In this document: positions 28,501-31,500 of the stretch, piece by piece | Layout of the letters: every line of letters starts with the position of its first letter | Position numbering within the stretch: the first letter of the stretch is position 1 | DNA from: Escherichia coli | Lineage (GTDB): Bacteria > Pseudomonadota > Gammaproteobacteria > Enterobacterales > Enterobacteriaceae | Direction: 5' to 3' (one strand) | Length of the DNA stretch: 64,000 bases | Assembly (NCBI RefSeq): GCF_003018235.1 | Contig: NZ_CP027437.1 | Position numbers: made by a program

Positions 28501-31500
28501 GACCCGGCATATAGCCTATCTCTGGCGTTTGTTTGTCTGCGGCGTCTGGGAATGCGCAAATGGAATAACCATTCAGTGGGTTATCGCCGTGGCGAAGCGC
28601 CAGAAAAGCCGCCGGGCCGTGGCAAAGGGAGATAACAAAACGGTCATTTTTGATTGCCCACTGTAAAGCGGCAGCCACGTCCTGGCTTTCAGGTAAACCA
28701 ATAAGTGCGCCATGACCACCAGGAACAAAGATTGCTGCATATTCGCTGTCTGCGTTGAGGCTGGCGACAACATCCGCGAGTTTCTTCGGATTGCGGAACA
28801 ACGATTTATGCTGCTCAAAGAATGGCATTACTTTTTCATCTTTGTGTGGCATAGCCCAGTATTCAAACTTGGTCATCAGACCTGAAATGGTCGCCACTTC
28901 GAATTCGAAACCTGCAGCATGGAGATGATACAACGGCAGCAACGTTTCAATCGGATGGTTACCGGTCGAGAACAGTTTGCCGTTATCGGTCGGCAAATAA
29001 CGTTCGTCCGCGGCGATCACCAGAATTTTATGTTTACCGCGATAAGGTTTTGGATAGTCCACGCCATCAAGATCAGAGACAGGACTGGTATATTGGCTAA
29101 GCGAATATTCTGAAGGGAAGAATGCATTATCTTCAGCAATATCGACCTGCGGATTTTTACTTGTTTGAACAGTCATAGTGTATTCCTTATTGTTGCTTAG
29201 TTAGGGTAGTCACTATATTTGCGACTGAGCTGGTCGCTATTTTTAACCAGGCTGGAAAATTGAGTCAATATATCGAAAGCGGTAGTCGGCGGGTGTAAGT
29301 ATGTAATGATGATGCTGCACTGGTGTTGAATATTATTCACGCCAAATTTTCCTTATTGAGCAACGCCGTCGCAAGTGACCTCAATGATTTTAGACCATTA
29401 TCAGAGGTACAGGGCGGCAGGGAGAGATTTAGTGATGTGGAATATTATGGTGCTGATGAATATTTATATCCCGGATTGGCAGAGAAAAAGCTTTTTTCAT
29501 GCACTATTTTTGCAAATATTTCTATATGGGAGGCGGTTTTGTTGCAGATTAATTCATAAAGAAATGCATTTGGGTGTTGGCTTGAAGAGTAGCTGGTTGA
29601 TGTTATTGTGCCAGGAGGGGCAGGGTAAGGGGCTGTATCGATATGCTTTGGCAATTGCGCGTGCCGCAGATGGAGATGAAATGCCAATAAAAAAGCCTGA
29701 GTTCGATGAGGGACGAACTCAGGCTATTGTTAAGTTTTACAGTAACACGCCGCGACGCGTTGGCTGATTAGAACTGGTAGACTAAGCCCACAGCTACGAT
29801 ATCATCGGTAGCGATGCCGTTTTCTTTGTAGAAGTCGTCGTCGTTGTCCAGCAGGTTGATTTTGTAATCAACGTAGGTGGACATGTTTTTGTTGAAGTAG
29901 TAGGTCATACCAATATCAACATATTTAACCAGATCTTTGTTGGTGTAATGATGATTGCCCTGGCTGTCGAAGTTATCACTATTTACACCGCCTAAATCCT
30001 TACCTTTAGATTGCAGGTAAGCGATGGACGGGCGCAGACCGAAGTCGAACTGATACTGAGCAACAACTTCAAAGTTTTGGGTTTTGTTAGCGATCGCATC
30101 AGCATCACCGTAACCAGTCATGTTACGGGTTTCAGCATACATAGCTGCTAAGTAAACATTATTAGCGTCGTACTTAGCACCAACGGTCCATGCTTCTGCT
30201 GTTTCACCGCCAGCAGTTGCATCGAAGCGGTCTCAGTCACGAGTATTATGCCAACCTTTGTGAACCTGATTGTCAGTACGGTCAGAATTAGAATATGCAG
30301 CACCCAGACTTAAACCGAAGTCGAAGTCGTAGGAAGTAGACATACCGAAACCATCACCATTTTCTTGAGCAATGTCACGACCCTTACCCTTACCAGAACC
30401 TTCCTGACCGAATGGACCACCGTTTTCGTTATTACTCTGATATTGCAGAGCAAAGTTCAGGCCATCAACCTGACCAAAGAAGCCATTGTTACGGTAGGTT
30501 GCAACACCATTAGCACGACCATTCATGAAGTTGTCAGCGCCAGCATAGGTATCGCCACCAAATTCTGGCAGCATATCGGTCCATGCTTCTACGTCATATA
30601 CGACACCGTAGTTACGACCATAGTCGAAAGTACCATTCTGACCAAAGCCTAAACCTGCAAATGCCAGACGCGTTGCAGTATTACCTTTGTCGCTTTCAGT
30701 ACCGTTTGCGCCAATGTTAAATTCCCACTGACCGTAACCAGTGAATTGATCAGCGATCTGAGTTTCACCTTTGAAACCGATACGGGCATATGACTTGTCG
30801 CCATCGCTGCCAGCATCATCAGAGAAGTAGTGCAGGCCCGCTACTTTTCCGTACAAATCCAGTTTATTACCATCTTTATTATAGACTTCAGCCGCATTTG
30901 CTGCGCCAGCAACTAATAACGCCGGGACCAGCATTGCCAGAACTTTTCTTTTCATTATGTATTCCCTTGTGATTATAATCTTCATGAATATATTAATAAG
31001 TGCCGTTATCCAAAAAAAAGCACATTTGGATACTATTCTATGAAGTTCATTTTATTTTAAAGATTACATTTAACAAATGTATTTAAAAGATTTCAAAATG
31101 TTTCTAATCTATTTAATATAATTCAGAATTATGAATTCTAAATATAAATATTCATGAAAATTATAAATGTATATCAATATGTTATGAGTTGAGTGGAAAC
31201 ATGGGGGGTATCAATGAGTGTTGCGCCAAACGGCTGGTGTGATCACGCGTACATTAATGAAGGCATAAAAAAAGCCGGCATCATGCCGGCCCAAAAAATA
31301 TAAACAAGACGATAAAAGGCTAATAACGGAGGCATCATGACACAGAAAAATAAAAAGGTATAATTATAATCAGTGCTAATATATTGATTGAATGAATTAA
31401 TAAAGCCGATATCAAAGATAAATAAAATCGCTCAAAACGATTTTTCCTGTATTCACTGCCGTTGCGCAAAAATTATCTATTTGTTCAAAAAATGATTGAG

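What the first reader, a model, noticed from the sequence alone, without database searches (positions are those of the whole stretch)
31200..31400. Candidate minus-strand small RNA between yedS and yedR
A GCCGGCA/TGCCGGC hairpin followed by a T-run on the minus strand, with a TATAAT-like element about 95 nt upstream, fits a ~90-nt sRNA. K-12 has RseX in this intergenic region, but I could not verify the sequence from memory.
Basis: partly seen in the sequence, partly recalled or inferred. Interest (0 to 1): 0.3.

Follow-up and report, generated by a model that had tools for sequence, protein, structure and literature searches.

The report
Known small RNA gene rseX
The hairpin and T-run are the end of rseX, a known 90-base E. 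coli regulatory RNA that shuts off outer-membrane porin genes when made in excess, so the finding is correct but ordinary.

Summary
The observation and the interpretation both hold. On the minus strand, a GCCGGCA/TGA/TGCCGGC hairpin (31290..31274) is followed by seven T (31273..31267). A TATAAT hexamer lies at 31368..31363. Rfam's rseX model (RF01401) matches 31267..31356 (-) over its full length at 96.7 bits (gathering score 50, E 5e-12). K-12 MG1655 annotates ncRNA rseX (b4603) at the same place, between drpB (yedR) and the yedS pseudogene. The window copy differs from it at three positions: nt 9, nt 26 and a 7-T versus 8-T tail. The exact 90-nt allele occurs in 851 of 5,426 complete E. coli genomes, and rseX in some form in 4,876. 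Orthologues with the same neighbours occur in other Escherichia species and in Citrobacter amalonaticus. The RNA body is far better conserved than its flanks. The invariant core (nt 29-49) is complementary to the ribosome-binding regions of K-12 ompA and ompC, the published targets. This is already known. One small curiosity: the -10 box is a perfect TATAAT here, but TACAAT or another variant in every other sequence examined. The T allele was found in none of 5,426 E. coli genomes and no metagenome contig. No expression data are available.

The parts
31267..31356 (-). rseX small RNA gene (90 nt). The 5' end is set by homology to the K-12 annotated, 5'-RACE-derived end. The 3' end is the last T of the terminator tail.
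   Evidence: Rfam RF01401, 96.7 bits, model positions 1-94 of 94. Aligned to K-12 b4603. Identical 90-mer in 851 of 5,426 E. coli genomes.
31363..31368 (-). -10 hexamer TATAAT, at -12..-7 from the inferred start 31356. K-12 and all other alleles seen have C, A or G-containing variants at hexamer position 3 (TACAAT, TAAAAT, TACCAT, TACGAT).
   Evidence: Sequence and alignments A1/A2. The T allele is absent from 5,426 E. coli genomes (positive control) and from metagenome contigs (control).
31319..31343 (-). Weak 5' stem-loop (nt 14-38). The loop, nt 24-29, is GCCUCC here and GCUUCC in K-12, and varies between species.
   Evidence: Rfam consensus structure and single-sequence MFE. RNAalifold prefers a different weak pairing, so this stem is not firmly supported.
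31308..31328 (-). Invariant core CGUUAUUAGCCUUUUAUCGUC (nt 29-49), the predicted target-pairing (seed) region.
   Evidence: Invariant in all 8 sequences. Nt 30-43 form a 14-bp contiguous helix with K-12 ompC -15..-2. Nt 29-36 pair with ompA UGAUAACG just upstream of its Shine-Dalgarno.
31293..31306 (-). U-rich single-stranded stretch (UGUUUAUAUUUUUU) directly before the terminator, a likely Hfq contact.
   Evidence: Sequence, unpaired in every fold. The Hfq role is inferred from general knowledge of Hfq-dependent sRNAs.
31267..31292 (-). Intrinsic terminator: stem 31292..31272 (core arms GCCGGCA/TGCCGGC, loop UGA) and U7 tail 31273..31267.
   Evidence: Terminator scan. 25 of 26 columns are invariant in Escherichia, and the basal pair changes G-C to A-U in Citrobacter.
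29768..30955 (-). Downstream neighbour yedS (OmpC-family porin). Here it is 395 codons interrupted by one in-frame TGA at codon 241 (30235..30233). It gives context and synteny and is not part of the sRNA.
   Evidence: Translation. Alignment to the intact XJ6.1 gene and the K-12 pseudogene. Annotations.
31584..31886 (+). Divergent neighbour drpB (yedR). The start is 31584 by the K-12 annotation or 31605 by PGAP.
   Evidence: ORF list and annotations of K-12, ER1821R and XJ6.1.

Best explanation
This is the rseX gene. A sigma-70-type promoter (-10 at 31368..31363, weak -35) would start a 90-nt RNA at 31356, which ends at the intrinsic terminator at 31267. In K-12, RseX binds Hfq. When it is made in quantity it base-pairs with the translation-initiation regions of ompA and ompC mRNA and lowers both porins. 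That relieves envelope stress enough to bypass the need for the RseP protease. It also represses fimB and ihfB. The chromosomal gene is normally silenced by H-NS (backed up by StpA), so the RNA is undetectable in wild-type laboratory cultures. Shown here: identity, position, terminator, cross-species conservation of the RNA body, and preserved complementarity to ompA and ompC. Taken from the literature for K-12: Hfq dependence, targets and H-NS silencing. Inferred for this strain: that the same holds. The pairing core is unchanged and the intergenic region is AT-rich.
For: Rfam rseX match at 96.7 bits versus gathering 50, over the full model. K-12 annotates rseX b4603 at the syntenic site, and the two copies differ at 3 positions. 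rseX is present in 4,876 of 5,426 complete E. coli genomes, and the exact window allele in 851. Rfam-level orthologues occur in E. albertii, E. whittamii, two unnamed Escherichia species and Citrobacter amalonaticus. In C. amalonaticus the yedJ-drpB-rseX-yedS order is kept. Across 7 sequences, invariant columns are 42/64 in the RNA body and 20/26 in the terminator, against 13/60 upstream and 3/20 downstream. The terminator has one compensatory pair change. Local duplex energy of nt 12-50 with K-12 ompA is -20.6 kcal/mol and with ompC -21.8. Shuffles give -14.0 +/- 2.9 and -13.0 +/- 3.1, and only 7 and 6 of 500 reach the observed values. A 14-bp contiguous helix covers the ompC Shine-Dalgarno (56 of 2,000 shuffles as long). 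The intergenic region has GC 0.20-0.38 against 0.45-0.55 in the flanks, which fits H-NS binding. Literature: PMC8313858 (H-NS silencing, ~91-nt band in delta-hns, ompA/fimB/ihfB repression, citing Douchin 2006), PMC1851643 and PMC1804206.
Against: There is no transcript evidence for this strain. [quoted passage not shown] The promoter scan did not call the minus-strand promoter because no hexamer at the -35 position reaches 4 of 6 (best by eye TTCAAT/TCAATC). Single-sequence folding is not better than shuffles (z -1.5), and the 5' stem-loop has no covariation support. Target pairing was computed against K-12 ompA and ompC because those genes lie outside the window, and the statistics are modest. 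rseX is missing from about 10% of E. coli genomes and was classed as variable (PMC3318445), which argues against an indispensable role.
Confidence: 0.93

Rival explanations
1. A cis-acting leader or attenuator of the downstream porin gene yedS. Transcription from the same promoter would mostly stop at the hairpin and sometimes read through 310 nt into yedS, so the short RNA would be a by-product.
For: rseX and yedS share strand and order in Escherichia and in Citrobacter amalonaticus. The linkage is conserved even where the promoter sequence is not.
Against: The terminator is strong (9 pairs, U7), and 310 nt of AT-rich DNA with its own promoter-like sites separates it from yedS. The RNA body stays conserved where yedS has decayed to a pseudogene, both in K-12 and in this window. 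Plasmid-borne RseX acts in trans on ompA, ompC, fimB and ihfB.
Confidence: 0.03
2. A small protein gene. The ORF AUGAUGCCUCCG... starting at nt 19 of the RNA (31338) encodes about 31 residues.
For: An open frame exists from 31338 through the terminator to a TGA beyond it (read).
Against: There is no Shine-Dalgarno upstream of the AUG. The frame has no stop before the transcript's 3' end. The 7-T versus 8-T tail shifts the frame between the window and K-12. The codons in the loop region vary freely between species while the non-coding core is invariant.
Confidence: 0.01
3. A chance hairpin and T-run in AT-rich spacer DNA with no transcript at all.
For: The fold z-score is only -1.5, and one terminator-like site against 0.4 expected is weak on its own. 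Native expression is undetectable in wild-type K-12.
Against: Rfam E-value is 5e-12. The RNA body is three times better conserved than its flanks, with boundaries at the mapped 5' and 3' ends. A ~91-nt band appears in delta-hns K-12.
Confidence: 0.02

Closest known systems
RseX of E. coli K-12 (b4603; Rfam RF01401)
   Same: Same locus (drpB/yedR - rseX - yedS), same strand relation and same length class (90 vs 91 nt). The pairing core (nt 29-49) and the terminator stem-loop are identical. The Rfam match covers the full model.
   Different: U instead of A at nt 9. C instead of U at nt 26, so the loop reads GCCUCC and predicted ompA and ompC duplexes are 1.0 and 2.7 kcal/mol stronger. U7 instead of U8 tail. 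The -10 box is TATAAT instead of TACAAT.
MicC, MicF, MicA, RybB, OmrA/B (other Hfq-dependent porin-repressing sRNAs of enterobacteria)
   Same: Same working principle: a short primary transcript with an intrinsic terminator, Hfq-dependent pairing at the ribosome-binding site of omp mRNAs, and overlapping targets (ompC with MicC and RybB, ompA with MicA). Like micF next to ompC and, from my own knowledge, micC next to ompN, rseX sits beside a porin gene.
   Different: No sequence relationship. Only rseX and a sub-threshold RyhB terminator-type match were seen at this site. RseX is not in the sigma-E or OmpR regulons, and it is H-NS-silenced and natively undetectable.

Membership tests
RseX (Rfam RF01401) | Sequence and structure match to the family covariance model at or above the curated gathering score | tested here: met
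   96.7 bits against gathering 50, model positions 1-94 of 94, E 4.9e-12 in the 64-kb window.
RseX (Rfam RF01401) | Location between yedS and yedR/drpB, co-oriented with yedS | tested here: met
   yedS at 29768..30955 (-), rseX at 31267..31356 (-), drpB at 31584..31886 (+). This is the same order as the K-12 annotation.
RseX (Rfam RF01401) | Near-identity to the experimentally defined K-12 RNA (b4603) | tested here: met
   Two substitutions and one T fewer in 91 nt.
RseX (Rfam RF01401) | Rho-independent terminator forming the 3' end | tested here: met
   9-bp stem with 6 G-C pairs, loop UGA, U7 tail. Conserved in 8 sequences with one compensatory change.
RseX (Rfam RF01401) | Own sigma-70 promoter giving a primary transcript | tested here: inconclusive
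   A perfect -10 lies at -12..-7, but no acceptable -35 is present, so the consensus scan did not list it. The start site is known only from K-12 5' RACE as cited in PMC8313858.
RseX (Rfam RF01401) | Complementarity to ompA and ompC translation-initiation regions | tested here: met
   The core nt 29-43 is unchanged. Duplexes are -20.6 and -21.8 kcal/mol, and 7 and 6 of 500 shuffles are as good. A 14-bp helix covers the ompC SD. K-12 target sequences were used.
RseX (Rfam RF01401) | Hfq binding and Hfq-dependent repression of ompA/ompC; suppression of rseP lethality in multicopy | not testable with these tools
   Known for K-12 from the literature. Here only the U-rich stretch plus U7 tail can be noted.
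RseX (Rfam RF01401) | Transcript detectable (in K-12 only when H-NS is removed) | not testable with these tools
   No expression data are available. The AT-rich intergenic region (GC 0.20-0.38) is compatible with H-NS silencing.

The most novel reading that the evidence does not exclude
The window's strain carries a rare or private C-to-T change that turns the rseX -10 box from TACAAT into the consensus TATAAT. It also carries the common C26 allele, which strengthens predicted pairing to ompA and ompC. If the promoter change partly overcomes H-NS silencing, this could be a natural strain in which RseX is made from the chromosome. That would give a setting in which the long-elusive native role of RseX could be studied.
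Probability: 0.15. Interest if true: 0.3.

Novelty: already known. Interest (0 to 1): 0.08.

Why it matters
It matters little beyond correct annotation. rseX is a described E. coli sRNA, yet NCBI's automatic annotation leaves it unlabelled in the E. coli RefSeq records examined here (the features column reads 'none' or lists only the neighbouring genes), so naming it here is useful bookkeeping. The one point that might repay a small experiment is the consensus -10 allele. RseX has been hard to study because its chromosomal copy is silent, and a naturally stronger promoter could help.

Tried and rejected
1. Full-length RNAduplex of the 64-nt RseX body against 130-190-nt target leaders gave long, loop-ridden duplexes no better than shuffles: ompA -32.5 against -28.5 +/- 3.1, and yedS -21.8 against -22.8 +/- 3.6. 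I discarded these and used local windows instead. There is no sign that RseX targets the adjacent yedS leader.

2. The longest-helix statistic with G-U pairs allowed is nearly uninformative for ompA, because a U-rich RNA meets an A-rich leader. Only the 14-bp ompC helix stands out, and modestly.

3. The sub-threshold Rfam matches to STnc430 (+ strand, 22 bits against 47) and RyhB (21.7 against 55) align only to the generic terminator hairpin and were rejected.

4. The small-ORF reading was rejected: no Shine-Dalgarno, no stop inside the transcript, and the frame is not conserved.

5. A bidirectional terminator was rejected because no T-run follows the hairpin on the + strand.

6. One search failed on an out-of-range coordinate and was repeated.

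7. The original Douchin et al. 2006 paper is not in the searchable library. Its results are cited second-hand through PMC8313858, PMC1851643 and PMC1804206.

Full report
**Observation**

On the minus strand of 31200..31440 the sequence reads:

...GATTATAATTATACC | TTTTTATTTTTCTGTGTCATGATGCCTCCGTTATTAGCCTTTTATCGTCTTGTTTATATTTTTTGGGCCGGCATGATGCCGGCTTTTTTT | ATGCC...

- The arms GCCGGCA (31290..31284) and TGCCGGC (31280..31274) enclose the loop TGA.
- Seven T follow at 31273..31267.
- The terminator scan reports this as the only terminator-like site in 30900..31650: 9 pairs, 6 of them G-C, with 0.4 sites expected from shuffles.
- On the + strand the hairpin is followed by CCCAAAAAA, so it works in one direction only.
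- A perfect TATAAT lies at 31368..31363.

Taken alone, the hairpin and the fold energy (z = -1.5) are not statistically remarkable.

**Identity**

- A scan of the whole window against Rfam 15 gave two matches above the gathering score. One is rseX (RF01401) at 31267..31356 on the minus strand: 96.7 bits against a gathering score of 50, E 4.9e-12, covering model positions 1-94 of 94 (alignment).
- The K-12 MG1655 record NC_000913.3 annotates ncRNA rseX (b4603, 2033649..2033739) between drpB (formerly yedR) and the yedS pseudogene, on the same strand as yedS.
- The window has the same arrangement in inverted orientation: yedS at 29768..30955 (-), rseX (-), drpB at 31584..31886 (+).
- Aligned to K-12, the window RNA differs at nt 9 (U for A), at nt 26 (C for U, in the loop of the 5' stem-loop), and in having 7 rather than 8 terminal U.

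**Distribution and conservation**

- The 90-nt sequence matches 4,876 of 5,426 complete E. coli genomes, and 851 of them carry exactly this allele, including O157:H7 strains.
- About 10% of genomes lack rseX, in line with its earlier classification as a variable sRNA lost in some Shigella and E. coli HS (PMC3318445).
- A degenerate pattern from the conserved core, scanned over one genome per bacterial species, found the gene in E. albertii, E. whittamii, two unnamed Escherichia species, a divergent E. coli and Citrobacter amalonaticus. All six score above the Rfam gathering threshold, at 70.9-95.2 bits.
- In C. amalonaticus the order yedJ-drpB-rseX-yedS is kept and yedS is intact.
- Across seven of these sequences the invariant columns are 42 of 64 in the RNA body and 20 of 26 in the terminator, against 13 of 60 upstream and 3 of 20 downstream. 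Conservation therefore starts and stops at the ends of the RNA.
- Nt 12-20 and nt 29-49 are invariant in all eight sequences. The loop at nt 24-28 and the 5' end vary.
- The terminator shows one compensatory G-C to A-U change.
- The 5' stem-loop has no covariation support, and RNAalifold prefers a different weak pairing, so I do not rely on it.

**Mechanism**

What RseX does is known from K-12 and is taken here from the literature.

[quoted passage not shown] 2006, as summarised in PMC8313858 and PMC1851643).
- It was undetectable from the chromosome in E. coli and Salmonella until it was shown that H-NS, backed up by StpA, silences it. A ~91-nt band and a ~75-nt product appear in a delta-hns strain.
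- It also binds and represses fimB and ihfB.

I tested whether the window copy keeps the features this mechanism needs.

- ompA and ompC lie outside the window, so I used the K-12 sequences.
- RseX nt 30-43 (GUUAUUAGCCUUUU) form a 14-bp contiguous helix with ompC -15..-2 (AGAGGGUUAAUAAC), which covers the Shine-Dalgarno. Only 56 of 2,000 shuffles give a helix that long.
- Nt 29-36 pair with UGAUAACG just upstream of the ompA Shine-Dalgarno.
- Local duplex energies are -20.6 kcal/mol for ompA and -21.8 for ompC. Shuffles give -14.0 +/- 2.9 and -13.0 +/- 3.1, and only 7 and 6 of 500 reach the observed values.
- The pairing core is identical to K-12. The C26 allele makes both predicted duplexes slightly stronger than with the K-12 RNA, which gives -19.6 and -19.1.
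- A U-rich single-stranded stretch (31306..31293) followed by the hairpin and a U7 tail is the usual Hfq-binding arrangement. This is an inference from general knowledge.
- The intergenic region has GC 0.20-0.38 against 0.45-0.55 in the flanking genes, which is compatible with H-NS silencing.

**Weak points**

- There are no expression data for this strain.
- The consensus promoter scan did not list the minus-strand promoter, because no hexamer at the -35 position reaches 4 of 6. This fits the poor native expression reported for K-12.
- The target-pairing statistics are modest and rest on K-12 targets.

**Rivals**

- Leader or attenuator of yedS. This is unlikely because the RNA body stays conserved where yedS is a pseudogene, and because RseX acts in trans.
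- A 31-codon ORF starting at nt 19. It has no Shine-Dalgarno and no stop inside the transcript, and its frame is broken by the 7-T versus 8-T difference.
- A chance hairpin. This is excluded by the Rfam E-value and by conservation boundaries that coincide with the RNA ends.

**The one unusual detail**

- The -10 hexamer is TATAAT in the window. It is TACAAT in K-12, XJ6.1 and E. whittamii, and TAAAAT, TACCAT or TACGAT in the other species.
- The closest full-length E. coli promoter alleles differ from the window by exactly one base in 81.
- A 36-mer spanning -29..+7, in which every 28-base seed word includes the T, matched none of 5,426 complete E. coli genomes. A K-12-type 36-mer from -25..+11 matched 2,755.
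- A 24-mer with the T matched no metagenome contig. The same 24-mer with C matched 46.
- The allele is therefore rare or private. It could also be a sequencing error. Whether it raises transcription against H-NS silencing is unknown.

**Verdict**

The finding is real and was correctly interpreted. It is a known gene, so its novelty is nil and its interest low.

Noticed in passing
window 31363..31368 (-): The rseX -10 box is a perfect TATAAT through a C-to-T change at 31366. The allele is absent from 5,426 complete E. coli genomes and from metagenome contigs, whereas the C allele is common in both. It may be a promoter-up mutation, or a private SNP or sequencing error.
   Followed up: yes
window 29768..30955 (-), stop at 30235..30233: yedS (an OmpC-family porin) is full length (395 codons) except for one in-frame TGA at codon 241, inside a hypervariable surface-loop region. 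K-12 has different lesions (a TAG plus a frameshift), and strain XJ6.1 has an intact gene. The porin therefore seems to have been inactivated independently in different lineages.
   Followed up: partly
window 31337..31364 (+): A strong promoter-like site lies on the + strand (ATGACA-16 nt-TATAAT, 11 of 12 matches). It is back-to-back with the rseX -10 box, overlaps it, and points towards drpB. It could be the drpB promoter, or just the near-palindromic TATAATTATA sequence reading as a -10 on both strands.
   Followed up: no
window 39692..39778 (+): The DsrA small RNA gene (Rfam RF00014, 102.5 bits, full length) lies about 8.3 kb from rseX.
   Followed up: no
L007 (Citrobacter amalonaticus S646) 1944..2040 (+), with neighbours at 658..3457: An rseX orthologue (70.9 bits) occurs outside Escherichia with the yedJ-drpB-rseX-yedS order kept and an intact yedS. 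Its promoter region and the spacer before its terminator are unrelated to those of E. coli.
   Followed up: partly
window 24000..44000: The best match among 5,426 complete E. coli genomes is only 98.8% over 20 kb, and nearly all others are 95-99%. The source strain therefore has no close relative in that collection. Shigella is not included there.
   Followed up: no
E. coli RefSeq records under the rseX match: Automatically annotated E. coli genomes list no feature at rseX, although the sequence is present. Only the curated K-12 MG1655 record names it. Two of the matches to rseX lie on records typed as plasmids.
   Followed up: no
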